From: Eledone cirrhosa
Lineage: Eukaryota
Assembly: GCA_964016885.1 (NCBI GenBank)
Contig: CAXHJY010000517.1
Span: 62,001 to 126,000, forward strand
Reading direction: 5' to 3'
Length of the DNA stretch: 64,000 nucleotides
The notes beneath the pieces are model-generated. The model worked only from the letters and a program-made list of their open reading frames with translations. It ran no database searches and was not told where the DNA came from. The translations under genes were made by a program, and so were the position numbers. How positions within the stretch are numbered: position 1 is the first letter of the stretch; each line of letters opens with the position of its first letter. Below are positions 126 through 64,000 of the stretch, one piece after another.

Positions 126-169
126 CGCTTGTATAAAACAGGGCTCTGTTTATTATATATGTATATAAA

Positions 170-325: not shown

Positions 326-336
326 TATTCTGCCTC

Positions 337-2990: not shown

Positions 2991-3257
2991 GTGGAAAAGA
3001 GGAAGGAACGAGGGAGCACCCCTTCTCTGTGCTCCTGAGGAAAAGGGTTGCACACTTTTTTCGGGGGTGTGTGCGACCCCCCAAGGCGCCTCCTCTCTAT
3101 TGAGGATTTTGTTATAAATTTTATTTTTTGTTATATCTTATTTTATTTTTATATTTTGTTATTGCCTCCTCCTTATTGAGGACGCCTTTTTGTGTAAACT
3201 CCCCCCTTTGTACTTGTCCCACTTTTGATGCCCTAGTGACAAATAAAAGAAACAAAT
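2358..3257 (+). mobile_element. 5'-truncated Tx1/L1-like LINE copy including 3' UTR and A-rich tail
   Basis: ORF2 remnant, a ~250-bp 3' UTR with stem-loops and T-rich tracts, AATAAA at 3242-3247 and a decayed A tail. Confidence 0.75.
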
Positions 3258-6200
3258 CTATCACTACAGAACAAACAGTAATAGCAGTAGCAATAGACAT
3301 GACCTCTGGCCTATATTAGATTAGTTCCTTTATTCATTTTAACACGTTCCAATCATTAGACTGCTGTCTTTAAGGTTCGGTCATTAGACTGCTGTCTTTA
3401 AGGGTTTCAGTCATTAGACTGCTGTCTTTAAGGTTCGGTCATTAGACTGTTGTCTTTAAGGTTCGGTCATTAGACTGCTGTCTTTAAGGGTTTCAGTCAT
3501 AAGACTGCTGTCTTTAAGGTTCGGTCATTAGACTGCTGTTTTTAAGGTTCGGTCATTAGACTGCTGTCTTTAAGGTTCAGTCATTAGACTGGTGTCTTTA
3601 AGGTTTAGTCATTAGACTGCTGTCTTTATGGTTCGGTCATTAGACTGTTGTCTTTAAGGTTCAGTCGTTAGACTGCTGTCTTTAAGGTTCGGTCATTAGA
3701 CTGCTGTCTTTAAGGTTCGGTCATTAGACTGCTGTCTTTAAGGGTTTCAGTCATTAGACTGTTGTCTTATAGGGTTTCAGTCATTAGACTGTTGTCTTTA
3801 AGGTTTGGTCATTAGACTGCTGTCTTTAAGCTTCAGTCATTAGACTGCTGTCTTTAAGGGTTTCAGTCATTAGACTGTTGTCTTTAAGATTCGGTCATTA
3901 GACTGCTGTCTTTAAGGTTCAGTCATTAGACTGCTGTCTTTAAGGTTCAGTCATTAGACTGGTGTCTTTAAGGTTCAGTCATTAGACTGCTGTCTTTAAG
4001 GTTCGGTCATTAGACTGCTGTCTTTAAGATTCAGTCATTAGACTGTTGGCTTTATGGTTCGGTCATTAGACTGTTGGCTTTATGGTTCGGTCATTAGACT
4101 GTTGTCTTTAAGGTTCAGTCATTAGACTGCTGTCTTTAAGGTTCAGTCATTAGACTGCTGTCTTTAAGATTCAGTCATTAGACTGCTGTCTTTAAGGTTC
4201 AGTCATTAGACTGCTGTCTTTAAGGTTCAGTCATTAGACTGCTGTCTTTAAGGTTCAGTCATTAGACTGTTGTCTTTAAGGTTCAGTCATTAGACTGCTG
4301 TCTTTAACGTTCAGTCATTAGACTGCTGTCTTTAAGCTTCAGTCATTAGACTGCTGTCTTTAAGGGTTTCAGTCATTAGACTGTTGTCTTTAAGATTCGG
4401 TCATTAGACTGCTGTCTTTAAGGTTCAGTCATTAGACTGTTGTCTTTAAGGTTCAGTCATTAGACTGCTGTCTTTAAGGTTTAGTCATTAGACTGTTGTC
4501 TTTAAGGTTTAGTCATTAGACTGCTGTCTTTAAGGTTCAGTCATTAGACTGCTGTCTTTAAGGTTTAGTCATTAGACTGTTGTCTTTAAGGTTCAGTCAT
4601 TAGACTGTTGTCTTTAAGGTTCAGTCATTAGACTGCTGTCTTTAAGGTTCAGTCATTAGACTGCTGTCTTTAAGGTTCAGTCATTAGACTGCTGTCTTTA
4701 AGGTTCAGTCATTAGACTGCTGTCTTTAAGGTTCAGTCATTAGACTGTTGTCTTTAAGGTTCAGTCATTAGACTGCTGTCTTTAAGGTTCAGTCATTAGA
4801 CTGCTGTCTTTAAGGTTTAGTCATTAGACTGCTGTCTTTAAGGTTCAGTCATTAGACTGCTGTCTTTAAGGTTCAGTCATTAGACTGCTGTCTTTAAGGT
4901 TCAGTCATTAGACTGCTGTCTTTAAGGTTCAGTCATTAGACTGCTGTCTTTAAGGTTCAGTCATTAGACTGCTGTCTTTAAGGTTCAGTCATTAGACTGC
5001 TGTCTTTAAGGTTCAGTCATTAGACTGTTGTCTTTAAGGTTCAGTCATTAGACTGCTGTCTTTAAGGTTCAGTCATTAGACTGCTGTCTTTAAGGTTTAG
5101 TCATTAGACTGTTGTCTTTAAGGTTCAGTCATTAGACTGTTGTCTTTAAGGTTCAGTCATTAGACTGCTGTCTTTAAGGTTCAGTCATTAGACTGCTGTC
5201 TTTAAGGTTCAGTCATTAGACTGCTGTCTTTAAGGTTCAGTCATTAGACTGCTGTCTTTAAGGTTCAGTCATTAGACTGCTGTCTTTAAGGTTCAGTCAT
5301 TCGAATGTTGTCTTTATGGTTCAGTCATTAGACTGTTGTCTTTAAGGTTCAGTCATTAGACTGTTGTCTTTAAGGTTCAGTCATTAGACTGTTGTCTTTA
5401 AGGTTCAGTCATTAGACTGCTGTCTTTAAGGTTCGGTCATTCGACTGTTGTCTTTAAGGTTCAGTCATTAGACTGCTGTCTTTAAGGTTTAGTCATTAGA
5501 CTGTTGTCTTTAAGGTTTAGTCATTAGACTGCTGTCTTTAAGGTTCAGTCATTAGACTGCTGTCTTTAAGGTTTAGTCATTAGACTGTTGTCTTTAAGGT
5601 TCAGTCATTAGACTGTTGTCTTTAAGGTTCAGTCATTAGACTGCTGTCTTTAAGGTTCAGTCATTAGACTGCTGTCTTTAAGGTTCAGTCATTAGACTGC
5701 TGTCTTTAAGGTTCAGTCATTAGACTGCTGTCTTTAAGGTTCAGTCATTAGACTGCTGTCTTTAAGGTTCAGTCATTAGACTGCTGTCTTTAAGGTTCAG
5801 TCATTAGACTGTTGTCTTTAAGGTTCAGTCATTAGACTGCTGTCTTTAAGGTTCAGTCATTAGACTGCTGTCTTTAAGGTTTAGTCATTAGACTGTTGTC
5901 TTTAAGGTTCAGTCATTAGACTGTTGTCTTTAAGGTTCAGTCATTAGACTGCTGTCTTTAAGGTTCAGTCATTAGACTGCTGTCTTTAAGGTTCAGTCAT
6001 TAGACTGCTGTCTTTAAGGTTCAGTCATTAGACTGCTGTCTTTAAGGTTCAGTCATTAGACTGCTGTCTTTAAGGTTCAGTCATTAGACTGCTGTCTTTA
6101 AGGTTCAGTCATTCGAATGTTGTCTTTATGGTTCAGTCATTAGACTGTTGTCTTTAAGGTTCAGTCATTAGACTGTTGTCTTTAAGGTTCAGTCATTAGA

Positions 6201-6459
6201 CTGTTGTCTTTAAGGTTCAGTCATTAGACTGCTGTCTTTAAGGTTCGGTCATTCGACTGTTGTCTTTAAGGTTCAGTCATTCGACTGTTGTCTTTAAGGT
6301 TCAGTCATTAGACTGCTGTCTTTAAGGTTCAGTCATTAGACTGTTGTCTTTAAGGTTCGGTCATTAGACTTCTGTCTTTAAGGTTTAGTCATTAGACCGG
6401 TGTCTTTAAGGTTTGGTCATTAGACTGTTGTCTGTAAGGTTCAGTCATTAGACTGCTCT

Positions 6460-9400
6460 CTTTATGTTTCGGTCATTAGACTGCTATCTTTAAGGTTCAG
6501 TCATTAGACTGCTGTCTTTAAGGTTCAGTCATTAGACTGCTGTCTTTAAGGTTCAGTCATTAGACTGCTGTCTTTAAGATTCAGTCATTAGACTGTTGTC
6601 TTTAAGGTTCGGTCATTAGACTGTTGTCTTTATGGTTCAGTCATTAGACTGCTGTCTTTAAGGTTCAGTCATTCGACTGTTGTCTTTAAGGTTCAGTCAT
6701 TAGACTGTTGTCTTTAAGGTTCAGTCATTAGACTGTAGTCTTTATGGTTCAGTCACTAGACTGCTGTCTTTAAGGTTCAGTCATTAGACTGCTGTCTTTA
6801 AGGTTCAGTCATTAGACTGTTGTCTTTAAGATTCAGTCATTAGACTGTTGTCTTTAAGGTTCAGTCATTAGACTGTTGTCTTTATTGTTCAGTCATTAGA
6901 CTGTTGTCTTTAAGGTTCAGTCATTAGACTGTTGGCTTTATGGTTCGGTCATTAGACTGTTGGCTTTATGGTTCGGTCATTAGACTGTTGTCTTTAAGGT
7001 TCAGTCATTAGACTGTAGTCTTTATGGTTCAGTCATTAGACTGCTGTCTTTAAGGTTCAGTCATTAAACTGTTGTCTTTAAGGTTCAGTCATTAGACTGT
7101 TGTCTTTAAGGTTCAGTCATTAGACTGTAGTCTTTATGGTTCAGTCATTAGACTGCTGTCTTTAAGGTTCAGTCATTAGACTGCTGTCTTTAAGGTTCAG
7201 TCATTAGACTGCTGTCTTTAAGGTTCAGTCATTAGACTGCTGTCTTTAAGGTTCAGTCATTAGACTGCTGTCTTTAAGGTTCAGTCATTAGACTGTTGTC
7301 TTTAAGGTTCAGTCATTAGACTGCTGTCTTTAAGGTTCAGTCATTTGACTCTTACCTTTAAGGTTCAGTCATTAGACTGTTGTCTTTAAGATTCGGTCAT
7401 TAGACTGCTGTTTTTATGGTTCAGTCATTAGACTGTTGTCTTTAAGGTTCAGTCATTAGACTGTTGGCTTTAAGGTTCGGTCATTAGACTGCTGTCTTTA
7501 AGGTTCACTCATTCGACTGCTGTCTTTAAGGTTCAGTCATTAGACTGTTGGCTTTAAGGTTCAGTCATTAGACTGCTGTCTTTAAGGTTCACTCATTCGA
7601 CTGCTGTCTTTAAGGTTCAGTCATTAGACTGTTGGCTTTAAGGTTCGGTCATTAGACTGCTGTCTTTAAGGTTCAGTCATTAGACTGCTGTCTTTAAGGT
7701 TCAGTCATTAGACTGCTGTCTTTAAGATTCAGTCATTAGACTGCTGTCTTTAAGTTTCGGTCATTAGACTGCTATCTTTAAGGTTCAGTCATTAGACTGC
7801 TGTCTTTAAGGTTCAGTCATTAGACTGCTGTCTTTAAGGTTCAGTCATTAGACTGCTGTCTTTAAGATTCAGTCATTAGACTGTTGTCTTCAAGGTTCGG
7901 TCATTAGACTGTTGTCTTTATGGTTCAGTCATTAGACTGCTGTCTTTAAGGTTCAGTCATTCGACTGTTGTCTTTAAGGTTCAGTCATTAGACTGCTGTC
8001 TTTAAGATTCAGTCATTAGACTGTTGTCTTCAAGGTTCAGTCATTAGACTGTAGTCTTTATTGTTCAGTCATTAGACTGTTGTCTTTAAGGTTCAGTCAT
8101 TAGACTGTTGGCTTTATGGTTCGGTCAATAGACTGTTGGCTTTATGGTTCGGTCATTAGACTGCTGTCTTTAAGGTTCAGTCATTAGACTGTTGTCTTTA
8201 AGGTTCAGTCATTAGACTGCTGTCTTTAAGGTTCAGTCATTAGACTGCTGTCTTTAAGGTTTAGTCATTAGACTGTTGTCTTTAAGGTTCAGTCATTAGA
8301 CTGTTGTCTTTAAGGTTCAGTCATTAGACTGCTGTCTTTAAGGTTCAGTCATTCGAATGTTGTCTTTATGGTTCAGTCATTAGATTGTTGTCTTTAAGGT
8401 TCAGTCATTAGACTGCTGTCTTTAAGGTTCAGTCATTAGACTGTTGTCTTTAAGGTTCAGTCATTAGACTGTTGTCTTTATGGTTCAGTCATTAGACTGC
8501 TGTCTTTAAGGTTCACTCATTAGACTGCTGTCTTTAAGGTTCAGTCATTAGACTGTTGTCTTTAAGGTTCAGTCATTAGACTGGCTGTCTTTAAGATTCA
8601 GTCATTAGACTGCTGTCTTTAAGGTTCGGTCATTAGACTGCTGTCTTTAAGGTTCGGTCATTAGACTGCTGTCTTTAAGATTCAGTCATTAGACCGTTGT
8701 CTTTAAGGTTCGGTCATTAGACTGTTGTCTTTATTGTTCAGTCATTAGACTGTTGTCTTTAAGGTTCAGTCATTAGACTGTTGGCTTTATGGTTCGGTCA
8801 TTAGACTGTTGGCTTTATGGTTCGGTCATTAGACTGTTGTCTTTAAGGTTCAGTCATTAGACTGTAGTCTTTATGGTTCAGTCATTAGACTGCTGTCTTT
8901 AAGGTTCAGTCATTAGACTGTTGTCTTTAAGGTTCAGTCATTAGACTGTTGTCTTTAAGGTTCAGTCATTAGACTGTAGTCTTTATGGTTCAGTCGTTAG
9001 ACTGCTGTCTTTAAGGTTCAGTCATTAGACTGCTGTCTTTAAGGTTCAGTCATTAGACTGCTGTCTTTAAGGTTCAGTCATAAGACTGCTGTCTTTAAGG
9101 TTCAGTCATTAGACTGCTGTCTTTAAGGTTCAGTCATTCGACTGTTGTCTTTAAGGTTCGGTCATTAGACTGCTGTCTTTAAGGTTCAGTCATTAGACTG
9201 TTGTCTTTAAGGTTCAGTCATTAGACTGTTGTCTTTAAGGTTCAGTCATTAGACTGTTATCTTTAAGGTTCAGTCATTAGACTGTTGTCTTTACGGTTCA
9301 GTCATTAGACTGCTGTCTTTAAGGTTCAGTCATTAGACTGTTGTCTTTAAGGTTCAGTCATTAGACTGCAGTCTTTAAGGTTCAGTCATTAGACTGCTGT

Positions 9401-11500
9401 CTTTAAGGTTCAGTCATTAGACTGTTGTCTTTAAGGGTTTCAGTCATTCGACTGTTGTCTTTAAGGTTCAGTCATTAGACTGCTGTCTTTAAGGTTCAGT
9501 CATTTGACTCTTACCTTTAAGGTTCAGTCATTAGACTGTTGTCTTTAAGATTCGGTCATTAGACTGCTGTTTTTATGGTTCAGTCATTAGACTGTTGTCT
9601 TTAAGGTTCAGTCATTAGACTGTTGGCTTTAAGGTTCGGTCATTAGACTGCTGTCTTTAAGGTTCACTCATTCGACTGCTGTCTTTAAGGTTCAGTCATT
9701 AGACTGTTGGCTTTAAGGTTCAGTCATTAGACTGCTGTCTTTAAGGTTCACTCATTCGACTGCTGTCTTTAAGGTTCAGTCATTAGACTGTTGGCTTTAA
9801 GGTTCGGTCATTAGACTGCTGTCTTTAAGGTTCAGTCATTAGACTGCTGTCTTTAAGGTTCAGTCATTAGACTGCTGTCTTTAAGGTTCAGTCATTAGAC
9901 TGCTGTTTTTAAGTTTCGGTCATTAGACTGCTATCTTTAAGGTTCAGTCATTAGACTGCTGTCTTTAAGGTTCAGTCATTAGACTGCTGTCTTTAAGGTT
10001 CAGTCATTAGACTGCTGTCTTTAAGATTCAGTCATTAGACTGTTGTCTTTAAGGTTCGGTCATTAGACTGTTGTCTTTATGGTTCAGTCATTAGACTGCT
10101 GTCTTTAAGGTTCAGTCATTCGACTGTTGTCTTTAAGGTTCAGTCATTAGACTGTTGTCTTTAAGGTTCAGTCATTAGACTGTAGTCTTTATGGTTCAGT
10201 CACTAGACTGCTGTCTTTAAGGTTCAGTCATTAGACTGCTGTCTTTAAGGTTCAGTCATTAGACTGTTGTCTTTAAGATTCAGTCATTAGACTGTTGTCT
10301 TTAAGGTTCAGTCATTAGACTGTTGTCTTTATTGTTCAGTCATTAGACTGTTGTCTTTAAGGTTCAGTCATTAGACTGTTGGCTTTATGGTTCGGTCATT
10401 AGACTGTTGGCTTTATGGTTCGGTCATTAGACTGTTGTCTTTAAGGTTCAGTCATTAGACTGTAGTCTTTATGGTTCAGTCATTAGACTGCTGTCTTTAA
10501 GGTTCAGTCATTAAACTGTTGTCTTTAAGGTTCAGTCATTAGACTGTTGTCTTTAAGGTTCAGTCATTAGACTGTAGTCTTTATGGTTCAGTCATTAGAC
10601 TGCTGTCTTTAAGGTTCAGTCATTAGACTGCTGTCTTTAAGGTTCAGTCATTAGACTGCTGTCTTTAAGGTTCAGTCATTAGACTGCTGTCTTTAAGGTT
10701 CAGTCATTAGACTGCTGTCTTTAAGGTTCAGTCATTAGACTGTTGTCTTTAAGGTTCAGTCATTAGACTGCTGTCTTTAAGGTTCAGTCATTTGACTCTT
10801 ACCTTTAAGGTTCAGTCATTAGACTGTTGTCTTTAAGATTCGGTCATTAGACTGCTGTTTTTATGGTTCAGTCATTAGACTGTTGTCTTTAAGGTTCAGT
10901 CATTAGACTGTTGGCTTTAAGGTTCGGTCATTAGACTGCTGTCTTTAAGGTTCACTCATTCGACTGCTGTCTTTAAGGTTCAGTCATTAGACTGTTGGCT
11001 TTAAGGTTCAGTCATTAGACTGCTGTCTTTAAGGTTCACTCATTCGACTGCTGTCTTTAAGGTTCAGTCATTAGACTGTTGGCTTTAAGGTTCGGTCATT
11101 AGACTGCTGTCTTTAAGGTTCAGTCATTAGACTGCTGTCTTTAAGGTTCAGTCATTAGACTGCTGTCTTTAAGATTCAGTCATTAGACTGCTGTCTTTAA
11201 GTTTCGGTCATTAGACTGCTATCTTTAAGGTTCAGTCATTAGACTGCTGTCTTTAAGGTTCAGTCATTAGACTGCTGTCTTTAAGGTTCAGTCATTAGAC
11301 TGCTGTCTTTAAGATTCAGTCATTAGACTGTTGTCTTCAAGGTTCGGTCATTAGACTGTTGTCTTTATGGTTCAGTCATTAGACTGCTGTCTTTAAGGTT
11401 CAGTCATTCGACTGTTGTCTTTAAGGTTCAGTCATTAGACTGCTGTCTTTAAGATTCAGTCATTAGACTGTTGTCTTCAAGGTTCAGTCATTAGACTGTA
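6460..11500. repeat. Left satellite domain with a ~1.6-kb block repeated at offset 3,447 bp
   Basis: CTGCTATC at 6481/9928 and CATTTGACTCTTACC at 7342/10789 share the 3,447 offset. Confidence 0.8.
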
Positions 11501-14500
11501 GTCTTTATGGTTCAGTCACTAGACTGCTGTCTTTAAGGTTCAGTCATTAGACTGCTGTCTTTAAGGTTCAGTCATTAGACTGTTGTCTTTAAGATTCAGT
11601 CATTAGACTGTTGTCTTTAAGGTTCAGTCATTAGACTGTTGTCTTTATTGTTCAGTCATTAGACTGTTGTCTTTAAGGTTCAGTCATTAGACTGTTGGCT
11701 TTATGGTTCGGTCATTAGACTGTTGGCTTTATGGTTCGGTCATTAGACTGTTGTCTTTAAGGTTCAGTCATTAGACTGTAGTCTTTATGGTTCAGTCATT
11801 AGACTGCTGTCTTTAAGGTTCAGTCATTAAACTGTTGTCTTTAAGGTTCAGTCATTAGACTGTTGTCTTTAAGGTTCAGTCATTAGACTGTAGTCTTTAT
11901 GGTTCAGTCATTAGACTGCTGTCTTTAAGGTTCAGTCATTAGACTGCTGTCTTTAAGGTTCAGTCATTAGACTGCTGTCTTTAAGGTTCAGTCATTAGAC
12001 TGCTGTCTTTAAGGTTCAGTCATTAGACTGCTGTCTTTAAGGTTCAGTCATTAGACTGTTGTCTTTAAGGTTCAGTCATTAGACTGCTGTCTTTAAGGTT
12101 CAGTCATTCGACTGTTGTCTTTAAGGTTCGGTCATTAGACTGCTGTCTTTAAGGTTCAGTCATTAGACTGTTGTCTTTAAGGTTCAGTCATTAGACTGTT
12201 GTCTTTAAGGTTCAGTCATTAGACAGTTATCTTTAAGGTTCAGTCATTAGACTGTTGTCTTTACGGTTCAGTCATTAGACTGCTGTCTTTAAGGTTCAGT
12301 CATTAGACTGTTGTCTTTAAGGTTCAGTCATTAGACTGCAGTCTTTAAGGTTCAGTCATTAGACTGCTGTCTTTAAGGATCAGTCATTAGACTGTTGTCT
12401 TTAAGGGTTTCAGTCATTCGACTGCTGTCTTTAAGGTTCAGTCATTTGACTCTTACCTTTAAGGTTCAGTCATTAGACTGTTGTCTTTAAGATTTGGTCA
12501 TTAGACTGCTGTTTTTATGGTTCAGTCATTAGACTGTTGTCTTTAAGGTTCAGTCATTAGACTGTTGGCTTTAAGGTTCGGTCATTAGACTGCTGTCTTT
12601 AAGGTTCACTCATTCGACTGCTGTCTTTAAGGTTCAGTCATTAGACTGTTGGCTTTAAGGTTCAGTCATTAGACTGCTGTCTTTAAGGTTCACTCATTCG
12701 ACTGCTGTCTTTAAGGTTCAGTCATTAGACTGTTGGCTTTAAGGTTCGGTCATTAGACTGCTGTCTTTAAGGTTCAGTCATTAGACTGCTGTCTTTAAGG
12801 TTCAGTCATTAGACTGCTGTCTTTAAGGTTCAGTCATTAGACTGCTGTCTTTAAGTTTCGGTCATTAGACTGCTATCTTTAAGGTTCAGTCATTAGACTG
12901 CTGTCTTTAAGGTTCAGTCATTAGACTGCTGTCTTTAAGGTTCAGTCATTAGACTGCTGTCTTTAAGGTTCAGTCATTAGACTGCTGTCTTTAAGGTTCA
13001 CTCATTCGACTGCTGTCTTTAAGGTTCAGTCATTAGACTGATGGCTTTAAGGTTCGGTCATTAGACTGCTGTCTTTAAGGTTCAGTCATTAGACTGCTGT
13101 CTTTAAGGTTCAGTCATTAGACTACTGTCTTTAAGGTTCAGTCATTAGACTGCTGTCTTTAAGGTTCGCTCATTAGACTGCTATCTTTAAGGTTCAGTCA
13201 TTAGACTGCTGTCTTTAAGGTTCAGTCATTAGACTGCTGTCTTTAAGGTTCAGTCATTAGACTGTTGTCTTTAAGGTTCAGTCATTAGACTGTTGTCTTT
13301 ATGGTTCAGTCATTAGACTGCTGTCTTTAAGGTTCAGTCATTAGACTGTTGTCTTTAAGGTTCGGTCATTAGAATGTTGTCTTTATGGTTCAGTCATTAG
13401 ACTGCTGTCTTTAAGGTTCAGTCATTAGACTGTTGTCTTTAAGGTTCAGTCATTAGACTGTTGTCTTTATGGTTCAGTCATTAGACTGCTGTCTTTAAGG
13501 TTCAGTCATTAGACTGCTGTCTTTAAGGTTCAGTCATTAGACTGCTGTCTTTAAGGTTCAGTCATTAGACTGTTGTCTTTAAGGTTCAGTCATTAGACTG
13601 TTGTCTTTATGGTTCAGTCATTAGACTGCTGTCTTTAAGGTTCAGTCATTAGACTGCTGTCTTTAAGGTTCAGTCATTAGACTGTTGTCTTTAAGGTTCA
13701 GTCATTAGACTGTTGTCTTTATGGTTCAGTCATTCGACTGTTGTCTTTATGGTTCACTCATTAGACTGCTGTCTTTAAGGTTCAGTCATTAGACTGGTGT
13801 CTTTAAGGTTCAGTCATTAGACTGCTGTCTTTAAGGTTCAGTCATTAGACTGGTGTCTTTAAGGTTCGGTCATTAGACTGCTGTCTTTAAGGTTCAGTCA
13901 TTAGACTGCTGTATTTAAGGTTCAGTCATTCGACTGTTGTCTTTAAGGTTCGGTCATTAGACTGCTGTCTTTAAGGTTCAGTCATTAGACTGTTGTCTTT
14001 AAGGTTCAGTCATTAGACTGCTGTCTTTAAGGTTCAGTCATTAGACTGTTGTCTTTAAGGTTCAGTCATTAGACTGCTGTCTTTAAGGTTCAGTCATTAG
14101 AATGTTGTCTTTAAGGTTCAGTCATTAGACTGCTGTCTTTAAGGTTCAGTCATTAGACTGTTGTCTTTAAGGTTCAGTCATTAGACTGTTGTCTTTATGG
14201 TTCAGTCATTAGACTGCTGTCTTTAAGGTTCAGTCATTCGACTGTTGTCTTTAAGGTTCAGTCATTAGACTGCTGTCTTTAAGGTTCAGTCATTAGACTG
14301 CTGTCTTTAAGGTTCAGTCATTAGACTGCTGTCTTTAAGGTTCAGTCATTAGACTGCTGTCTTTAAGGTTTGCTCATTACACTGCTATCTTTAAGGTTCA
14401 GTCATTAGACTGCTGTCTTTAAGGTTCGGTCATTAGACCGCTGTCTTTAAGGTTCAGTCATTCGACTGTTGTCTTTAAGGTTCGGTCATTAGACTGCTGT

Positions 14501-14699
14501 CTTTAAGGTTCAGTCATTAGACTGTTGTCTTTAAGCTTCAGTCATTAGACTGTTGTCTTTAAGGTTCAGTCATTAGACTGTTGTCTTTAAGGTTCAGTCA
14601 TTAGACTGCTGTCTTTATGGTTCAGTCAATAGACTGTTGTCTTTAAGGTTTAGTCATTAGACTGCTGTCTTTAAGGTTCAGTCATTAGACTGCTGTCTT

Positions 14700-15740
14700 T
14701 AAGGTTCAGTCATTAGACTCTTACCTTTAAGGTTTAGTCATTAGACTGCTGTCTTTAAGGTTCAGTCATTAGACTCTTACCTTTAAGGTTTAGTCATTAG
14801 ACTGCTGTCTTTATGGTTCAGTCATTAGACTGCTGTCTTTAAGATTCAGTCATTAGACTCTTACCTTTAAGGTTTAGTCATTAGACTGCTGTCTTTAAGG
14901 TTCAGTCATTAGACTGCTGTCTTTAAGTTTCAGTCATTAGACTCTTACCTTTAAGGTTTAGTCATTAGACTGCTGTCTTTAAGGTTCAGTCATTAGACTC
15001 TTACCTTTAAGGTTTAGTCATTAGACTGCTGTCTTTATGGTTCAGTCATTAGACTGCTGTCTTTAAGGTTTAGTAATTAGACTGCTGTCTTTAGGGTTCA
15101 GTCATTAGACTGCTGTCTTTAAGGTTTAGTCATTAGACTGCTGTCTTTAAGGTTCAGTCATTAGACTCTTATCTTTAAGGTTTAGTCATTAGACAGCTGT
15201 CTTTATGGTTCAGTCATTAGACTGCTGTCTTTAAGGTTCAGTCATTAGACTCTTACCTTTAAGGTTTAGTCATTAGACTGCTGTCTTTAAGGTTCAGTCA
15301 TTAGACTGCTGTCTTTAAGGTTTAGTCATTAGACTGCTGTCTTTAAGGTTCAGTCATTAGACTCTTACCTTTAAGGTTTAGTCATTAGACTGCTGTCTTT
15401 ATGGTTCAGTCATTAGACTGCTGTCTTTAAGGTTCAGTCATTAGACTCTTACCTTTAAGGTTTAGTCATTAGACTGCTGTCTTTAAGGTTCAGTCATTAG
15501 ACTCTTATTTTTAAGGTTTAGTCATTAGACTGCTGTCTTTATGGTTCAGTCATTAGACTGCTGTCTTTAAGGTTCAGTCATTAGACTCTGACCTTTAAGG
15601 TTTAGTCATTAGACTGCTGTCTTTAAGGTTCAGTCATTAGACTGCTGTCTTTAAGGTTCAGTCATTAGACTCTTACCTTTAAGGTTTAGTCATTAGACTG
15701 CTGTCTTTAAGGTTCAGTCATTAGACTCTTACCTTTAAGG
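14700..15740. repeat. Sub-array enriched in the GACTCTTACC/GGTTTAG monomer variant
   Basis: About 13 copies of the variant, mostly spaced 2-4 monomers apart. Confidence 0.9.
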
Positions 15741-18700
15741 TTTAGTCATTAGACTGCTGTCTTTATGGTTCAGTCATTAGACTGCTGTCTTTAAGGTTCA
15801 GTCATTAGACTGTTGTCTTTAAGGTTCAGTCATTAGACTGCTGTCTTTATGGTTCAGTCATTAGACTGCTGTCTTTATGGTTCAGTCATTACACTGCTGT
15901 CTTTAAGGTTCAGTCATTAGACTGTTGTCTTTAAGGTTCAGTCATTAGACTGCTGTCTTTAAGGTTCACTCATTCGACTGCTGTCTTTAAGGTTCAGTCA
16001 TTAGACTGTTGTCTTTAAGGTTCAGTCATTAGACTGCTGTCCTTAAGGGTTTCAGTCATTCGACTGTTGTCTTTAAGGTTCAGTCATTAGACTGTTGTCT
16101 TTAAGGTTTAGTCATTCGACTGTTGTCTTTATGGTTCAGTCATTAGACTGCTGTCTTTAAGGTTCAGTCATTAGACTGCTGTCTTTAAGGTTTAGTCATT
16201 CGACTGTTGTCTTTATGGTTCAGTCATTAGACTGCTGTCTTTAAGGTTCAGTCATTAGACTGCTGTCTTTAAGGTTCAGTCATTAGACTGTTGTCTTTAA
16301 GGTTCAGTCATTAGACTGTTGTCTTTAAGGTTCAGTCATTAGACTGTTGTCTTTAAGGTTCAGTCATTAGACTGTTGTCTTTAAGGTTCAGTCATTAGAC
16401 TGCTGTCTTTAAGGTTCAGTCAATAGACTGTTGTCTTTAAGGTTCAGTCATTAGACTGTTGTCTTTAAGGTTCAGTCATTAGACTGCTGTCTTTATGGTT
16501 CAGTCATTAGACTGTTGTCTTTAAGGTTCAGTCATTAGACTGCTGTCTTTAAGTTTCAATCATTAGACTGCTGTCTTTAAGGTTCAGTTATTAGACTGTT
16601 GTCTTTAAGGTTCAGTCATTAGACTGTTGTCTTTAAAGTTCAGTCATTAGACTGCTGTCTTTATGGTTCAGTCATTAGACTGTTGTCTTTAAGGTTCAGT
16701 CATTAGACTGCTGTCTTTAAGGTTCAGTCATTAGACTGCTGTCTTTAAGGTTCAGTCATTAGACTGTTGTCTTTAAGGTTCAGTCATTAGACTGCTGTCT
16801 TTATGGTTCAGTCATTAGACTGTTGTCTTTAAGGTTCAGTCATTAGACTGCTGTCTTTAAGGTTCAGTCATTAGACTGCTGTCTTTAAGGTTCACTCATT
16901 CGACTGCTGTCTTTATGGTTCAGTCATTCGACTGTTGTCTTTATGGTTCAGTCATTAGACTGCTGTCTTTAAGGTTCAGTCATTAGACTTCTGTCTTTAA
17001 GGTTTAGTCATTAGACTGCTGTCTTTAAGGTTCAGTCATTAGACTGTTGTCTTTAAGGTTCAGTCATTAGACTGTTGTCTTTAAGGTTTAGTCATTAGAC
17101 TGCTGTCTTTAAGGTTCAGTCATTAGACTGTTGTCTTTAAGGTTCAGTCATTAGACTGTTGTCTTTAAGCTTCAGTCATTAGACTGTTGTCTTTAAGGTT
17201 CAGTCATTAGACTGTTGTCTTTAAGGTTCAGTCATTAGACTGTTGTCTTTAAGGTTCAGTCATTAGACTGTTGTCTTTAAGGTTCAGTCATTAGACTGCT
17301 GTCTTTAAGGTTCAGTCATTAGACTGTTGTCTTTAAGGTTCAGTCATTAGACTGTTGTCTTTAAGGTTCAGTCATTAGACTGTTGTCTCTAAGGTTCAGT
17401 CATTAGACTGCTGTCTTTATGGTTCAGTCATTAGACTGTTGTCTTTAAGGTTCAGTCATTAGACTGCTGTCTTTAAGGTTCAGTCATTAGACTGCTGTCT
17501 TTAAGGTTCAGTCATTAGACTGTTGTCTTTAAGGTTCACTCATTCGACTGCTGTCTTTAAGTTTCAGTCATTAGACTGCTGTCTTTAAGGTTGAGTCATT
17601 AGACTGCTGTCTTTAAGGTTCACTCATTAGACTGCTGTCTTTAAGGTTCGGTCATTAGACTGTTGTCTTTAAGGTTCAGTCATTAGACTGCTGTCTTTAA
17701 GGTTCAGTCATTAGACTGCTGTCTTTAAGGTTCAGTCATTAGACTGCTGTCTTTAAGGTTCAGTCATTAGACTGCTGTCTTTAAGGTTCAGTCATTAGAC
17801 TGCTGTCTTTAAGGTTTAGTCATTAGACTGCTGTCTTAATGGTTCAGTCATTCGACTGTTGTCTTTATGGTTCAGTCATTCGACTGTTGTCTTTATGGTT
17901 CAGTCATTAGACTGTTGTCTTTAAGGTTTAGTCATTAGACTGCTGTCTTTAAGGTTCAGTCATTAGACTGCTGTCTTTAAGGTTCAGTCATTAGACTGTT
18001 GTCTTTAAGGTTCAGTCATTAGACTGCTGTCTTTGGGTTTAGTCATTAGACTGCTGTCTTTAAGGTTCAGTCATTAGACTGCTGTCTTTAAGGTTCAGTC
18101 ATTAGACTGCTGTCTTTAAGGTTCAGTCATTAGACTGTTGTCTTTAAGGTTCAGTCATTAGACTGTTGTCTTTAAGGTTCAGTCAGTAGACTGCTGTCTT
18201 TATGGTTCAGTCATTAGACTGTTGTCTTTAAGGTTCAGTCATTAGACTGCTGTCTTTAAGGTTCAGTCATTAGACTGCTGTCTTTAAGGTTCACTCATTC
18301 GACTGCTGTCTTTATGGTTCAATCATTCGACCGTTGTCTTTATGGTTCAGTCATTAGACTGTTGTCTTTAAGGTTCAGTCATTAGACTTCTGTCTTTAAG
18401 GTTTAGTCATTAGACTGCTGTCTTTAAGGTTCAGTCATTAGACTGTTGTCTTTAAGGTTCAGTCATTAGACTGTTGTCTTTAAGGTTTAGTCATTAGACT
18501 GCTGTCTTTAAGGTTCAGTCATTAGACTGCTGTCTTTAAGGTTCAGTCATTAGACTGTTGTCTTTAAGGTTCAGTCATTAGACTTCTGTCTTTAAGGTTT
18601 AGTCATTAGACTGCTGTCTTTAAGGTTTAGTCATTAGACTGCTGTCTTTAAGGTTCAGTCATTAGACTGCTGTCTTTAAGGTTCAGTCATTAGACTGCTG

Positions 18701-21700
18701 TCTTTAAGGTTCGGTCATTAGACTGCTGTCTTTAAGGTTCAGTCATTAGACTGCTGTCTTTATGGTTCGGTCATTCGACTGTTGTCTTTAAGGTTCAGTC
18801 ATTAGACTGCTGTCTTTAAGGTTCAGTCATTAGACTGCTGCCTTCAAGGTTCAGTCATTAGACTGTTGTCTTTAAGGTTCAGTCATTAGACTGCTGTCTT
18901 TAAGGTTCAGCCATTAGACTGCTGCCTTCAAGGTTCAGTCATTTGACTGTTGTCTTTAAGGTTCACTAATTCGACGGCTGTCTTTAAGTTTCAGTCATTA
19001 GACTGCTGTCTTTAAGGTTCAGTCATTAGACTGTTGTCTTTAAGGTTCAGTGATTAGACTGTTGTCTTTAAGGTTCAGTCATTAGACTGTTGTCTTTAAG
19101 GTTCAGTCATTAGACTGCTGTCTTTATGGTTCAGTCATTAGACTGTTGTCTTTAATGTTCAGTCATTAGACTGCTGTCTTTAAGGTTCACTCATTCGACT
19201 GCTGTCTTTAAGTTTCAGTCATTAGACTGCTGTCTTTAAGTTTCAGTCATTAGACTTCTGTCTTTAAGGTTTAGTCATTAGACTGCTGTCTTTAAGGTTT
19301 AGTCATTAGACTGCTGTCTTTAAGGTTCAGTCATTAGACTGCTGTCTTTAAGGTTCAGTCATTAGACTGCTGTCTTTAAGGTTCGGTCATTAGACTGCTG
19401 TCTTTAAGGTTCAGTCGTTAGACTGCTGTCTTTATGGTTCGGTCATTCGACTGTTGTCTTTAAGGTTCAGTCATTAGACTGCTGTCTTTAAGGTTCAGTC
19501 ATTAGACTGCTGCCTTCAAGGTTCAGTCATTTGACTGTTGTCTTTAAGGTTCACTAATTCGACGGCTGTCTTTAAGGTTCAGTCATTAGACTGCTGTCTT
19601 TAAGGTTCACTCATTAGACCGCTGTCTTTAAGTTTCAGTCATTAGACTGCTGTTTTAAGGTTCAGTCATTAGACTGTTGTCTTTAAGGTTCAGTCATTAG
19701 ACTTCTGTCTTTAAGGTTTAGTCATTAGACTGCTGTCTTTAAGGTTTAGTCATTAGACTGCTGTCTTTAAGGTTCAGTCATTAGACTGCTGGCTTTAAGG
19801 TTCAGTCATTAGACTGCTGTCTTTAAGGTTCGGTCATTAGACTGCTGTCTTTAAGGTTCAGTCATTAGACTGCTGTCTTTATGGTTCGGTCATTCGACTG
19901 TTGTCTTTAAGGTTCAGTCATTAGACTGCTGTCTTTAAGGTTCAGTCATTAGACTGCTGCCTTCAAGGTTCAGTCATTTGACTGTTGTCTTTAAGGTTCA
20001 CTAATTCGACGGCTGTCTTTAAGTTTCAGTCATTAGACTGCTGTCTTTAAGGTTCAGTCATTAGACTGTTGTCTTTAAGGTTCAGTCATTAGACTGTTGT
20101 CTTTAAGGTTCAGTCATTAGACTGTTGGCTTTAAGGTTCAGTCATTAGACTGCTGTCTTTATGGTTCAGTCATTAGACTGTTGTCTTTAAGGTTCAGTCA
20201 TTAGACTGCTGTCTTTAAGGTTCAGTCATTAGACTGCTGTCTTTAAGGTTTAGTCATTAGACTGTTGTCTTTAAGGTTCACTCATTCGACTGCTGTCTTT
20301 AAGTTTCAGTCATTAGACTGCTGTCTTTAAGGTTCAGTCATTAGACTGCTGTCTTTAAGGTTCACTCATTAGACTGCTGTCTTTAAGGTTCGGTCATTAG
20401 ACTGTTGTCTTTAAGGTTCAGTCATTAGACTGCTGTCTTTAAGGTTCAGTCATTAGACTGCTGTCTTTAAGGTTCAGTCATTAGACTGCTGTCTTTAAGG
20501 TTCAGTCATTAGACTGCTGTCTTTAAGGTTCAGTCATTAGACTGCTGTCTTTAAGGTTTAGTCATTAGACTGCTGTCTTTATGGTTCAGTCATTCGACTG
20601 TTGTCTTTATGTTTCAGTCATTCGACTGTTGTCTTTATGGTTCAGTCATTAGATTGTTGTCTTTAAGGTTTAGTCATTAGACTGCTGTCTTTAAGGTTCA
20701 GTCATTAGACTGCTGTCTTAAAGGTTCAGTCATTAGACTGTTTTCTTTAAGGTTCAGTCATTAGACTGCTGTCTTTATGGTTCAGTCATTAGACTGTTGT
20801 CTTTAAGGTTCAGTCATTAGACTGCTGTCTTTAAGGTTCAGTCATTAGACTGCTGTCTTTAAGGTTCAGTCAATAGACTGTTGTCTTTAAGGTTCAGTCA
20901 TTAGACTGTTGTCTTTAAGGTTCAGTCAGTAGACTGCTGTCTTTATGGTTCAGTCATTAGACTGTTGTCTTTAAGGTTCAGTCATTAGACTGCTGTCTTT
21001 AAGGTTCAGTCATTAGACTGCTGTCTTTAAGGTTCACTCATTCGACTGCTGTCTTTATGGTTCAGTCATTCGACTGTTGTCTTTATGGTTCAGTCATTAG
21101 ACTGTTGTCTTTAAGGTTCAGTCATTAGACTTCTGTCTTTAAGGTTTAGTCATTAGACTGCTGTCTTTAAGGTTCAGTCATTAGACTGTTGTCTTTAAGG
21201 TTCAGTCATTAGACTGCTGTCTTTAAGGTTCGGTCATTAGACTGCTGTCTTTAAGGTTCAGTCATTAGACTGCTGTCTTTATGGTTCGGTCATTCGACTG
21301 TTGTCTTTAAGGTTCAGTCATTAGACTGCTGTCTTTAAGGTTCAGTCATTAGACTGCTGCCTTCAAGGTTCAGTCATTTGACTGTTGTCTTTAAGGTTCA
21401 CTAATTCGACGGCTGTCTTTAAGGTTCAGTCATTAGACTGCTGTCTTTAAGGTTCAGTCATTAGACTGTTGTCTTTAAGGTTCAGTCATTAGACTGCTGT
21501 CTTTAAGGTTCGGTCATTAGACTGCTGTCTTTAAGGTTCAGTCATTAGACTGCTGTCTTTATGGTTCGGTCATTCGACTGTTGTCTTTAAGGTTCAGTCA
21601 TTAGACTGTTGTCTTTAAGGTTCAGTCATTAGACTTCTGTCTTTAAGGTTTAGTCATTAGACTGCTGTCTTTAAGGTTTAGTCATTAGACTGCTGTCTTT

Positions 21701-24700
21701 AAGGTTCAGTCATTAGACTGCTGTCTTTAAGGTTCAGTCATTAGACTGCTGTCTTTAAGGTTCGGTCATTAGACTGCTGTCTTTAAGGTTCAGTCATTAG
21801 ACTGCTGTCTTTATGGTTCGGTCATTCGACTGTTGTCTTTAAGGTTCAGTCATTAGACTGCTGTCTTTAAGGTTCAGTCATTAGACTGCTGCCTTCAAGG
21901 TTCAGTCATTTGACTGTTGTCTTTAAGGTTCACTAATTCGACGGCTGTCTTTAAGTTTCAGTCATTAGACTGCTGTCTTTAAGGTTCACTCATTAGACCG
22001 CTGTCTTTAAGGTTCGGTCATTAGACTGTTGTCTTTAAGGTTCAGTCATTAGACTGTTGTCTTTAAGGTTCAGTCATTAGACTGTTGGCTTTAAGGTTCA
22101 GTCATTAGACTGCTGTCTTTATGGTTCAGTCATTAGACTGTTGTCTTTAAGGTTCAGTCATTAGACTGCTGTCTTTATGGTTCAGTCATTAGACTGTTGT
22201 CTTTAAGGTTCAGTCATTAGACTGCTGTCTTTAAGGTTCAGTCATTAGACTGCTGTCTTTAAGGTTTAGTCATTAGACTGTTGTCTTTAAGGTTCACTCA
22301 TTCGACTGCTGTCTTTAAGTTTCAGTCATTAGACTGCTGTCTTTAAGGTTCAGTCATTAGACTGCTGTCTTTAAGGTTCACTCATTAGACGGCTGTCTTT
22401 AAGGTTCGGTCATTAGACTGTTGTCTTTAAGGTTCAGTCATTAGACTGCTGTCTTTAAGGTTCAGTCATTAGACTGCTGTCTTTAAGGTTCAGTCATTAG
22501 ACTGCTGTCTTTAAGGTTCAGTCATTAGACTGCTGTCTTTAAGGTTCAGTCATTAGACTGCTGTCTTTAAGGTTTAGTCATTAGACTGCTGTCTTTATGG
22601 TTCAGTCATTCGACTGTTGTCTTTATGTTTCAGTCATTCGACTGTTGTCTTTATGGTTCAGTCATTAGATTGTTGTCTTTAAGGTTTAGTCATTAGACTG
22701 CTGTCTTTAAGGTTCAGTCATTAGACTGCTGTCTTTAAGGTTCAGTCATTAGACTGTTGTCTTTAAGGTTCAGTCATTAGACTGCTGTCTTTATGGTTCA
22801 GTCATTAGACTGTTGTCTTTAAGGTTCAGTCATTAGACTGCTGTCTTTAAGGTTCAGTCATTAGACTGCTGTCTTTAAGGTTCAGTCAATAGACTGTTGT
22901 CTTTAAGGTTCAGTCATTAGACTGTTGTCTTTAAGGTTCAGTCAGTAGACTGCTGTCTTTATGGTTCAGTCATTAGACTGTTGTCTTTAAGGTTCAGTCA
23001 TTAGACTGCTGTCTTTAAGGTTCAGTCATTAGACTGCTGTCTTTAAGGTTCACTCATTCGACTGCTGTCTTTATGGTTCAGTCATTCGACTGTTGTCTTT
23101 ATGGTTCAGTCATTAGACTGTTGTCTTTAAGGTTCAGTCATTAGACTTCTGTCTTTAAGGTTTAGTCATTAGACTGCTGTCTTTAAGGTTCAGTCATTAG
23201 ACTGTTGTCTTTAAGGTTCAGTCATTAGACTGTTGTCTTTAAGGTTTAGTCATTAGACTGCTGTCTTTAAGGTTCAGTCATTAGACTGCTGTCTTTAAGG
23301 TTCAGTCATTAGACTGTTGTCTTTAAGGTTCAGTCATTAGACTTCTGTCTTTAAGGTTTAGTCATTAGACTGCTGTCTTTAAGGTTTAGTCATTAGACTG
23401 CTGTCTTTAAGGTTCAGTCATTAGACTGCTGTCTTTAAGGTTCAGTCATTAGACTGCTGTCTTTAAGGTTCAGTCATTAGACTGTTGTCTTTAAGGTTTA
23501 GTCATTAGACTGCTGTCTTTAAGGTTCAGTCATTAGACTGTTGTCTTTAAGTTTCAGTCATTAGACTGTTGTCTTTAAGCTTCAGTCATTAGACTGTTGT
23601 CTTTAAGGTTCAGTCATTAGACTGTTGTCTTTAAGGTTCAGTCATTAGACTGTTGTCTTTAAGGTTCAGTCGTTAGACTGTTGTCTTTAAGGTTCAGTCA
23701 TTAGACTGCTGTCTTTAAGGTTCAGTCATTAGACTGTTGTCTTTAAGGTTCACTCATTCGACTGCTGTCTTTAAGTTTCAGTCATTAGACTGCTGTCTTT
23801 AAGGTTCAGTCATTAGACTGCTGTCTTTAAGGTTCACTCATTAGACTGCTGTCTTTAAGGTTCGGTCATTAGACTGTTGTCTTTAAGGTTCAGTCATTAG
23901 ACTGCTGTCTTTAAGGTTCAGTCATTAGACTGCTGTCTTTAAGGTTCAGTCATTAGACTGCTGTCTTTAAGGTTCAGTCATTAGACTGCTGTCTTTAAGG
24001 TTCAGTCATTAGACTGCTGTCTTTAAGGTTTAGTCATTAGACTGCTGTCTTAATGGTTCAGTCATTCGACTGTTGTCTTTATGGTTCAGTCATTCGACTG
24101 TTGTCTTTATGGTTCAGTCATTAGACTGTTGTCTATAAGGTTTAGTCATTAGACTGCTGTCTTTAAGGTTCAGTCATTAGACTGCTGTCTTTAAGGTTCA
24201 GTCATTAGACTGTTGTCTTTAAGGTTCAGTCATTAGACTGCTGTCTTTAAGGTTTAGTCATTAGACTGCTGTCTTTAAGGTTCAGTCATTAGACTGCTGT
24301 CTTTAAGGTTCAGTCATTAGACTGCTGTCTTTAAGGTTCAGTCATTAGACTGTTGTCTTTAAGGTTCAGTCATTAGACTGTTGTCTTTAAGGTTCAGTCA
24401 TTAGACTGCTGTCTTTAAGGTTCAGTCATTAGACTGTTGTCTTTAAGGTTCAGTCATTAGACTGTTGTCTTTAAGGTTTAGTCATTAGACTGCTGTCTTT
24501 AAGGTTCAGTCATTAGACTGTTGTCTTTAAGGTTCAGTCATTAGACTGTTGTCTTTAAGCTTCAGTCATTAGACTGTTGTCTTTAAGGTTCAGTCATTAG
24601 ACTGTTGTCTTTAAGGTTCAGTCATTAGACTGTTGTCTTTAAGGTTCAGTCATTAGACTGTTGTCTTTAAGGTTCAGTCATTAGACTGCTGTCTTTAAGG

Positions 24701-26479
24701 TTCAGTCATTAGACTGTTGTCTTTAAGGTTCAGTCATTAGACTGTTGTCTTTAAGGTTCAGTCATTAGACTGTTGTCTTTAAGGTTCAGTCATTAGACTG
24801 CTGTCTTTATGGTTCAGTCATTAGACTGTTGTCTTTAAGGTTCAGTCATTAGACTGCTGTCTTTAAGGTTCAGTCATTAGACTGCTGTCTTTAAGGTTCA
24901 GTCATTAGACTGTTGTCTTTAAGGTTCACTCATTCGACTGCTGACTTTAAGTTTCAGTCATTAGACTGCTGTCTTTAAGGTTCAGTCATTAGACTGCTGT
25001 CTTTAAGGTTCACTCATTAGACTGCTGTCTTTAAGGTTCGGTCATTAGACTGTTGTCTTTAAGGTTCAGTCATTAGACTGCTGTCTTTAAGGTTCAGTCA
25101 TTAGACTGCTGTCTTTAAGGTTTAGTCATTAGACTGCTGTCTTTAAGGTTCAGTCATTAGACTGCTGTCTTTAAGGTTCAGTCATTAGACTGCTGTCTTT
25201 AAGGTTTAGTCATTAGACTGCTGTCTTAATGGTTCAGTCATTCGACTGTTGTCTTTATGGTTCAGTCATTCGACTGTTGTCTTTATGGTTCAGTCATTAG
25301 ACTGTTGTCTTTAAGGTTTAGTCATTAGACTGCTGTCTTTAAGGTTCAGTCATCAGACTGCTGTCTTTAAGGTTCAGTCATTAGACTGTTGTCTTTAAGG
25401 TTCAGTCATTAGACTGCTGTCTTTAAGGTTTAGTCATTAGACTGCTGTCTTTAAGGTTCAGTCATTAGACTGCTGTCTTTAAGGTTCAGTCATTAGACTG
25501 CTGTCTTTAAGGTTCAGTCATTAGACTGTTGTCTTTAAGGTTCAGTCATTAGACTGTTGTCTTTAAGGTTCAGTCAGTAGACTGCTGTCTTTATGGTTCA
25601 GTCATTAGACTGTTGTCTTTAAGGTTCAGTCATTAGACTGCTGTCTTTAAGGTTCAGTCATTAGACTGTTGTCTTTAAGGTTCAGTCAGTAGACTGCTGT
25701 CTTTATGGTTCAGTCATTAGACTGTTGTCTTTAAGGTTCAGTCATTAGACTGTTGTCTTTAAGGTTCAGTCATTAGACTGTTGTCTTTAAGGTTCAGTCA
25801 GTAGACTGCTGTCTTTATGGTTCAGTCATTAGACTGTTGTCTTTAAGGTTCAGTCATTAGACTGCTGTCTTTAAGGTTCACTCATTCGACTGCTGTCTTT
25901 ATGGTTCAGTCATTCGACCGTTGTCTTTATGGTTCAGTCATTAGACTGTTGTCTTTAAGGTTCAGTCATTAGACTTCTGTCTTTAAGGTTTAGTCATTAG
26001 ACTGCTGTCTTTAAGGTTCAGTCATTAGACTGTTGTCTTTAAGGTTCAGTCATTAGACTGTTGTCTTTAAGGTTTAGTCATTAGACTGCTGTCTTTAAGG
26101 TTCAGTCATTAGACTGCTGTCTTTAAGGTTCGGTCATTAGACTGTTGTCTTTAAGGTTCAGTCATTAGACTTCTGTCTTTAAGGTTTAGTCATTAGACTG
26201 CTGTCTTTAAGGTTTAGTCATTAGACTGCTGTCTTTAAGGTTCAGTCATTAGACTGCTGTCTTTAAGGTTCAGTCATTAGACTGCTGTCTTTAAGGTTCG
26301 GTCATTAGACTGCTGTCTTTAAGGTTCAGTCATTAGACTGCTGTCTTTATGGTTCGGTCATTCGACTGTTGTCTTTAAGGTTCAGTCATTAGACTGCTGT
26401 CTTTAAGGTTCAGCCATTAGACTGCTGCCTTCAAGGTTCAGTCATTTGACTGTTGTCTTTAAGGTTCACTAATTCGACG

Positions 26480-63345: not shown

Positions 63346-64000
63346 ATTCGACTGTTGTCTTTAAGGTTCAGTCATTAGACTGCTGTCTTTAAGGTTCAGT
63401 CATTAGACTGCTGCCTTCAAGGTTCAGTCATTTGATTGTTGTCTTTAAGGTTCACTAATTCGACGGCTGTCTTTAAGTTTCAGTCATTAGACTGCTGTCT
63501 TTAAGGTTCAGTCATTCGACTGTTGTCTTTAAGGTTCAGTCATTAGACTGTTGTCTTTAAGGTTCAGTCATTAGACTGTTGTCTTTAAGGTTCAGTCATT
63601 AGACTGCAGTCTTTAAGGTTCAGTCATTAGACTGCTGTCTTTAAGTTTCAGTCATTAGACTGTTGTCTTTAAGGGTTTCAGTCATTCGACTGCTGTCTTT
63701 AAGGTTCAGTCATTTGACTCTTACCTTTAAGGTTCAGTCATTAGACTGTTGTCTTTAAGGTTCAGTCATTAGACTGCTGTCTTTAAGGTTTAGTCATTCG
63801 ACTGCTGTCTTTAAGGTTCACTCATTCGACTGCTGTCTTTAAGGTTCAGTCATTAGACTGTTGTCTTTATGGTTCTGTCATTAGACTGTTGTCTTTAAGG
63901 TTCGGTCATTAGACTGCTGTCTTTAAGATTCACTCATTCGACGGTTGTCTTTATGGTTCAGTCATTAGACTGCTGTCTTTAAGGTTCAGTCATTAGACTG

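What the first reader, a model, noticed from the sequence alone, without database searches (positions are those of the whole stretch)
3320..3900. The 28-bp satellite may derive from the end of an octopus SINE, with the origin junction preserved
Seen: the array begins after a pyrimidine-rich leader (TTAGTTCCTTTATTCATTTTAACACGTTCCAATCATTAGACTGC), and early monomers often carry the longer AAGGGTTTCAGTC form. Recalled, not searched: the antisense 3' end of common Octopus SINEs reads roughly TCTTTTACTTGTTTCAGTCATT(A/T)GACTGCGGCCATGCTGGAGCAC(C/T)GCCTT(G/T)AAGGGTTT. Inference: the monomer looks like this segment with the GGCCATGCTGGAGCA interior removed near an ACTGC microhomology. The array variants CATTTGACTG, GCTGCCTTCAAGG and AAGGGTTTCAG all lie closer to that SINE sequence. 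This would be a SINE-to-satellite conversion amplified to over 60 kb.
Basis: partly seen in the sequence, partly recalled or inferred. Interest (0 to 1): 0.75.

Follow-up and report, generated by a model that had tools for sequence, protein, structure and literature searches.

The report
Satellite grown from a SINE tail
This 78,000-base block of 28-letter repeats matches a shortened piece from the tail end of a common jumping element in the same genome and most likely grew out of one such copy; the process is known from reptiles and humans, but this genome keeps at least 17 sister arrays that look like in-between stages.

Summary
Confirmed in substance. The array runs from window 3353 to G000:C544:143,399 (78 kb, 2,785 units), and its junction pattern occurs nowhere else. 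The genome holds a dispersed ~390-nt tRNA-type SINE whose 3' end, read antisense, carries both halves of the unit 16 nt apart; unit and junction beat 1,000 of 1,000 shuffles. The leader fits the SINE tail, not the unit. New here: the SINE has an imperfect 10-nt direct repeat 46 nt apart; 46 - 16 = the 30-mer, - 2 = the 28-mer. Three other arrays close at that repeat (46/43, 46, 39/37 bp), and 17 other arrays use this SINE end. Not supported: the ACTG microhomology, two of three 'closer' variants, any SINE remainder at the far end. Birth in place versus import from a sister array is open. The octopus family name was not testable. It is a new member of a known kind (squamate SINE-derived satellites, PMC10702118). 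The scan noted LINE- and RTE/SINE-derived arrays elsewhere in this genome, not this family.

The parts
3320..3352 (-). Leader: decayed 3' simple-repeat tail of the SINE (SINE sense is on the minus strand)
   Evidence: Anchored alignment score 24 to the SINE tail, 7 and 6 to the 30- and 28-mer; 1 of 5,000 genomic 33-mers and 0 of 5,000 shuffles reach 24; real copies score 9-56. nhmmer did not detect the leader alone.
3345..3364 (-). First, decayed SINE core unit joining leader and array
   Evidence: 17 of 20 identical to the SINE consensus; single copies average 16 of 20
3353..64000 (+). 28-bp tandem array; continues to G000:C544:143,399 (78 kb, 2,785 whole units)
   Evidence: 1.1-1.6 differences per unit from the commonest unit
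3387..3416 (+). First 30-nt unit, inferred ancestral form (46-nt SINE segment less 16 nt)
   Evidence: 20 of 20 match in first half; second half fits the 10 nt before the SINE's internal repeat, 97 of 100,000 shuffles as good
16062..55943 (+). Central block without 30-nt units
   Evidence: 1,426 units between successive 30-mers
18833..63430 (+).
   Evidence: 35 units in the whole array, none among the first 100
55944..59373 (+). Two blocks rich in 30-nt units; like blocks recur beyond the window

Best explanation
The array is a single-locus satellite whose unit matches the 3' end of this genome's dispersed tRNA-type SINE, and it most likely grew in place from one SINE copy whose tail survives as the leader. 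Shown: the SINE end carries an imperfect 10-nt direct repeat 46 nt apart, and the 30-nt unit equals the stretch between the two repeats less 16 internal bases; the 28-mer is the 30-mer less 2. Inferred: slippage or unequal exchange between the two repeats made the first tandem copy; the 16-nt deletion came before or soon after; the 28-mer then swept most of the array during expansion by unequal exchange, leaving 30-mers near the edges; a later rearrangement removed the rest of the SINE at the right end. No function is indicated. SINE origin about 0.95; birth in place about 0.6.
For: Profile built from 30 copies picked on a motif outside the unit: junction, leader plus first unit, 28-dimer and 30-dimer each beat 1,000 of 1,000 shuffles. 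Leader fits the SINE tail. Internal repeat 8 of 10 at offset 46, next best 5 of 10; second half in fixed register 97 of 100,000 shuffles and 115 of 100,000 genomic 10-mers. The same closure is used at three other loci. The C12 array keeps both SINE ends, tail leader and body, around 39/37-bp units. Nine single SINE copies carry 4-19-nt deletions of the same interior, control 0; L218 has a 16-nt one. The last unit of the array has the long SINE-like form. All 1,677 genome hits of the deleted junction lie in this array. Short direct repeats as seeds of Alu minisatellites are described in PMC3389668 (passages).
Against: The second half alone is not significant when any register is allowed (7 of 11; 8,184 of 20,000 shuffles). 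No SINE body or head lies next to the far end, so the bracket is one-sided and target-site duplications cannot be read. The 30-mer matches the consensus 20 of 20 where 0 of 30 single copies do, and the first unit only 17 of 20. The TGTCTT variant is in 0 of 56 unselected singles but in 7 of 17 other arrays. No longer unit survives inside this array. No single-step microhomology explains the 16-nt loss (read from the consensus).
Confidence: 0.62

Rival explanations
1. The unit is SINE-derived but was born in another array (a 37-bp unit as on C12, or a 46-bp unit as on C26) and copied into an old resident SINE by ectopic conversion or circle re-insertion; the leader is then a landing site, not the birthplace.
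For: Best relatives of the 30-mer plus closure: C12 37-mer 38 of 40 with one 7-nt gap, C26:4.607 46-mer 37 of 40 with one 16-nt gap. The C12 37-mer shares the whole second half. One 71-bp junction is shared exactly by 6 loci on C8 and C26, on both strands, whose flanks share only short dispersed repeats. Unit looks younger than its leader.
Against: C12 and C26 units fit almost equally, so one extra substitution separates the routes and convergence is possible. The test that arrays are closer to consensus than singles was weak (p 0.11 and 0.03). C544 and C12 flanks share only dispersed repeats. A single copy with a 16-nt deletion exists.
Confidence: 0.24
2. The first tandem copies were laid down during retrotransposition (reverse transcriptase restarting at the RNA 3' end, or a master SINE that carried a repeated 3' end), and later shrank and expanded.
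For: Short arrays mix units of different length that each restart at the tail. L244 on C8 is one extra 71-bp unit followed by a SINE body, with the C26 junction. In C26:4.335, 71-, 46- and 43-bp units coexist. PMC3389668 suggests initiation during retrotransposition (passages).
Against: This array's unit restarts at the internal repeat, not at the tail. The SINE's 5' part also seeds an array (65-bp spacing at C3:41.33 Mb), so the 3' end is not the only source. 0 of 30 copies picked on a mid-element motif carry an array.
Confidence: 0.1
3. The likeness to the SINE is chance, or the array is an assembly artefact.
For: The unit is short and the family was first sought with a pattern taken from it.
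Against: 20-nt exact match, independent leader match and register fit. The array has 26-58 distinct unit types per 150 units and block structure. Contigs of a public run hold array units with variant letters (X1; that run may be the assembly's own source).
Confidence: 0.04

Closest known systems
SINE-derived satellites (sSat1-3) of squamate reptiles, PMC10702118 (parts 1-4 of 5 of the whole text read; supplements not opened)
   Same: Tandem unit is part of a tRNA-type SINE; one end keeps a longer unit that runs to the SINE terminus; many loci from a few to hundreds of units; long loci homogeneous; minor variants with internal deletions reported.
   Different: Unit 28 bp against about 67-290 nt; 2,785 units against at most about 1,200 reported; here the closure maps to an internal direct repeat and sister arrays of 46, 43, 39 and 37 bp share it. 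The authors say it is uncertain whether such satellites are restricted to squamates. Subtelomeric position could not be tested for an unplaced contig.
Alu- and other TE-derived human minisatellites, PMC3389668 (passages; Jurka and Gentles 2006 known only as cited there)
   Same: Tandem copies of a SINE segment, some seeded by short direct repeats, then expanded locally.
   Different: Mean 2.3-2.4 units per Alu-derived locus there; here tens of kilobases at three loci (78 kb, about 119 kb, at least 19.6 kb).
Octopus tRNA-derived SINEs, including the CORE-SINE OR2 (Ohshima and Okada 1994, not read; named in passages of PMC4758252 and PMC5804259)
   Same: tRNA-type head, central conserved block and simple-repeat tail in the family rebuilt here; likeness of the central block to CORE is recalled, not tested.
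   Different: No sequence comparison was possible; the family name is open.

Membership tests
tRNA-derived SINE (source element) | Dispersed, multi-copy, non-coding, under about 600 nt | tested here: met
   192, 45, 70 and 203 exact hits for four motifs, controls 0 (counts include array units); about 390 nt; 4 single copies in 200 kb of unselected DNA; head linked to the 3' end in 6 of 12 loci
tRNA-derived SINE (source element) | Pol III A and B boxes in the head | tested here: inconclusive
   One B-box match at the expected place in the 12-copy consensus; the loose A-box pattern matched at 7 places, one of them in the head
tRNA-derived SINE (source element) | Homology of the head to a tRNA | tested here: inconclusive
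   Rfam gave no tRNA match on 9 decayed copies
tRNA-derived SINE (source element) | Simple-repeat or A-rich 3' tail | tested here: met
   A-rich 8-nt repeat tail in consensus
tRNA-derived SINE (source element) | Target-site duplications | not tested
   Not examined on dispersed copies; unreadable at this locus because the far end is lost
Named octopus SINE (OR2 or other) | Identity to a curated consensus | not testable with these tools
   No Dfam or Repbase library; a full-text search for a 17-nt motif on both strands found 0 papers
SINE-derived satellite (sSat, PMC10702118) | Unit is a SINE fragment shorter than the SINE | tested here: met
SINE-derived satellite (sSat, PMC10702118) | At least four middle monomers, homogeneous in long loci | tested here: met
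   2,785 units, 1.1-1.6 differences per 28 nt
SINE-derived satellite (sSat, PMC10702118) | A terminal unit extended to the SINE terminus at one end | tested here: met
   Left end: SINE tail; right end: none
SINE-derived satellite (sSat, PMC10702118) | Subtelomeric position (a tendency, not a definition) | not testable with these tools
   C544 is a 209,562-base contig of unknown place
Minisatellite seeded by short direct repeats | Direct repeats in the source that bound the unit | tested here: met
   8 of 10 at offset 46; used at 4 loci

The most novel reading that the evidence does not exclude
This SINE acts as a satellite delivery system: tandem seeds of its 3' end move between loci, by retrotransposition of a master with a repeated end or by conversion into resident copies, and then shrink stepwise (71 to 46 to 43; 46 to 39, 37, 30, 28 bp). 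One genome would then hold the whole path from a dimer to 78-119-kb satellites, with the 28-mer as the end product that no longer looks like a SINE.
Probability: 0.3. Interest if true: 0.65.

Novelty: new member of a known kind. Interest (0 to 1): 0.42.

Why it matters
How satellites begin is usually inferred from the end state. Here one SINE end gives at least 18 arrays in one assembly, from a few units to about 119 kb, with shared junctions and shrinking units, so models of satellite birth (direct-repeat slippage, transfer between loci, seeding at retrotransposition) can be tested against each other. It also bears on the question left open in PMC10702118, whether SINE-derived satellites occur outside squamates. 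It shows that a 28-bp satellite can hide a SINE origin. No function is shown, and the process itself is in print.

Tried and rejected
ACTG-microhomology route: gives a 19-nt loss (L217), so it would need a further 3-nt duplication; not favoured. Two 8-nt slips at 3-nt microhomologies also give the unit on paper, but no such intermediate appeared among the 9 deleted single copies.

Named variants as ancestral: rejected for two of three. A SINE remainder beyond the far end: none; nearest body hit about 40 kb away. Segmental duplication as the source of the sister arrays: flanks of the loci compared (18 flank sets) share only short dispersed repeats. Regular higher-order repeat: no lag above 9% identity among rarer units. 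Arrays younger than singles: weak. 3' end as a unique hotspot: not shown; 4 of 30 loci against 0 of 12 for a head motif, and a head-derived array exists. tRNA homology by Rfam: no hit.

Public runs: 24 listed, no RNA holder listed. Four were laid; most cover is on the upstream LINE. Window 3350-3420 had cover in 3 of 4 runs (three organism codes) and one contig of X4 showed the 2-nt shorter form; this is only a hint that the array or a relative exists in another organism. 3275-3349 had no cover in any of the four, which proves nothing. The orthologous-site question stays open.

Literature: seven searches listed no paper on SINE-derived satellites in cephalopods; the library lacks most subscription journals. 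PMC13282606 has 0 occurrences of 'satellite' as a word start (passages); PMC12692304 lists SINEs among satellite sources (passages); PMC9224753 added nothing (passages). No supplements were opened; those of PMC10702118 hold the unit alignments and may bear on the comparison.

Full report
The array. The window is G000:C544:62,001-126,000 in a 3.0-Gb assembly. A 28-bp tandem array starts at window 3353 and ends at C544:143,399: 78 kb, 2,785 whole units, of which 2,729 are 28 nt, 30 are 30 nt, 21 are 27 nt and 5 are 29 nt. A pattern for the unit's internal junction has 1,677 hits in the genome, and all 1,677 lie in this array. The 30-nt form is 5 of the first 20 units and 25 of the other 2,765; the last, cut unit also has the long form. 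A central run of 1,426 units has none. Blocks rich in 30-mers recur from window 55,944 on, so the left edge is enriched but not unique.

The source element. A 21-nt pattern found 192 exact hits, reversed control 0; 30 loci were read. To avoid circularity a profile was built from 30 further loci picked on a motif outside the unit. Twelve long copies give an element of about 390 nt: a head with a B-box match and a loose A-box match, a central block, a dinucleotide microsatellite, a 3' body and an A-rich repeat tail. The head motif is linked to the 3' end in 6 of 12 loci. Rfam found no tRNA in 9 copies.

Unit against SINE. Junction, leader plus first unit, 28-dimer and 30-dimer each scored above all of 1,000 shuffles. 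The first half of the 30-mer equals the consensus at 20 of 20; none of 30 single copies does, mean 16. The second half is weak alone: 7 of 11, matched by 8,184 of 20,000 shuffles in free register, although its best place is 16 nt downstream. The consensus has an imperfect direct repeat of its 10-nt start, 8 of 10, at offset 46; the next best is 5 of 10. The second half fits the 10 nt just before that repeat, with 97 of 100,000 shuffles as good. So 46 less 16 gives the 30-mer, and 2 less the 28-mer. The register was fixed after seeing the data, so that figure is supportive, not a clean test.

The leader. Window 3320-3352 aligns to the SINE tail with score 24, against 7 and 6 for the units; 1 of 5,000 genomic 33-mers and 0 of 5,000 shuffles reach 24; real copies score 9-56. 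At the right end the array abuts a piece of another dispersed repeat seen in 3 other fetched loci, and no SINE body or head is near.

The deletion. Nine single SINE copies have 4-19-nt losses in the same interior, control 0; none is in an array; L218 has lost 16 nt, L217 the 19 nt that an ACTG microhomology predicts.

Sister arrays. Pattern hits led to 17 other arrays of three or more units from the same SINE end: C2 (49, 48, 46, 50 bp), C3 (50 bp; ends about 119 kb apart, about 39 kb of it read), C12 (39/37), C17 (80), C25 (83, 89) and eight on C26 (43-72, often mixed). They were found by exact patterns, which favours arrays, so this is a lower bound and no rate. In unselected DNA 0 of 4 copies in 200 kb and 0 of 30 mid-motif copies were arrays. 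The closure at the internal repeat occurs at four loci: this one, C26:4.335, C26:4.607 and C12:31.17 Mb. The C12 array keeps a tail leader and runs out into the SINE body, which is the complete form of the structure proposed here. A 71-bp junction is shared exactly by 6 loci on C8 and C26, whose flanks share only short dispersed repeats.

Mechanism. Shown: unit structure, leader identity, internal repeat, recurrent deletions, shared closure. Inferred: first duplication by slippage or unequal exchange at the direct repeat, shrinkage to 30 and 28, expansion and homogenisation by unequal exchange, loss of the SINE body on the right. Against birth in place: the unit looks younger than its leader, its closest relatives are units of the C12 and C26 arrays, and a variant common in arrays is absent from 56 unselected singles. 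A direct test of 'arrays younger than singles' was weak (p 0.11 and 0.03). The SINE's 5' part also seeds an array, so a 3'-specific process is not shown.

Known systems. The closest is the squamate sSat class (PMC10702118), then Alu-derived minisatellites seeded by short direct repeats (PMC3389668). Differences are the very short, internally deleted unit, the length, and the graded sister arrays. Seven literature searches listed no cephalopod case. Earlier notes of this scan describe LINE- and RTE/SINE-derived arrays in other pieces of this genome; look-ups by sequence and by place found none like this one.

Verdict.

Noticed in passing
G000:C3:337,896,167-338,015,080 (L056-L060): The 50-bp SINE-derived array, about 119 kb, lies between two consecutive sulfotransferase-like exons (PF00685 model positions 136-166, 20.5 bits, below cut-off; and 167-203, 27.6 bits), so it appears to fill one intron.
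   Followed up: partly
G000:C12:31,171,770-31,176,933 (L258, L272): Array of 39- and 37-bp units with both SINE ends kept, an alternating 39/37 block, and a 182-nt interruption.
   Followed up: yes
G000:C26:1.19-7.69 Mb: Cluster of at least eight SINE-end arrays plus dimers on both strands with shared 71- and 58-bp junctions and unrelated flanks.
   Followed up: partly
G000:C3:41,330,016-41,334,891 and beyond: Array with 65-bp spacing that holds a motif of the SINE's central block; seen only as pattern hits.
   Followed up: no
window 2385-3260: 3' end of a LINE: open frame with zf-RVT (PF13966, 28.2 bits) and an A-rich end about 70 nt before the leader; related sequence is in all 4 public runs laid.
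   Followed up: partly
window 337-424 and 1010-1097: 88-nt inverted repeats, 95% complementary, 585 nt apart; likely a MITE.
   Followed up: no
window 169-330: Piece of a second common SINE-like repeat; the same motif is seen in several fetched loci.
   Followed up: no
L022:7406-8060 (C544:143,406-144,060): Dispersed repeat with an internal 286-bp duplication abutting the array's far end; its end looks Helitron-like by recall, untested.
   Followed up: partly
L022:8809 to L023:2700: 21-bp AC-rich array and degenerate CAC-rich repeats begin 1.4 kb past the array.
   Followed up: no
array unit position 6: The commonest polymorphism (C 1,379, T 771 of 2,165) sits exactly at the deletion junction, where a one-base shift of the breakpoint in a C26-type unit would give either letter; may be chance.
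   Followed up: no
L061:5052-6251: 84-bp periodic sequence that looks like a C2H2 zinc-finger array, 10 kb past the C3 satellite; not scanned.
   Followed up: no
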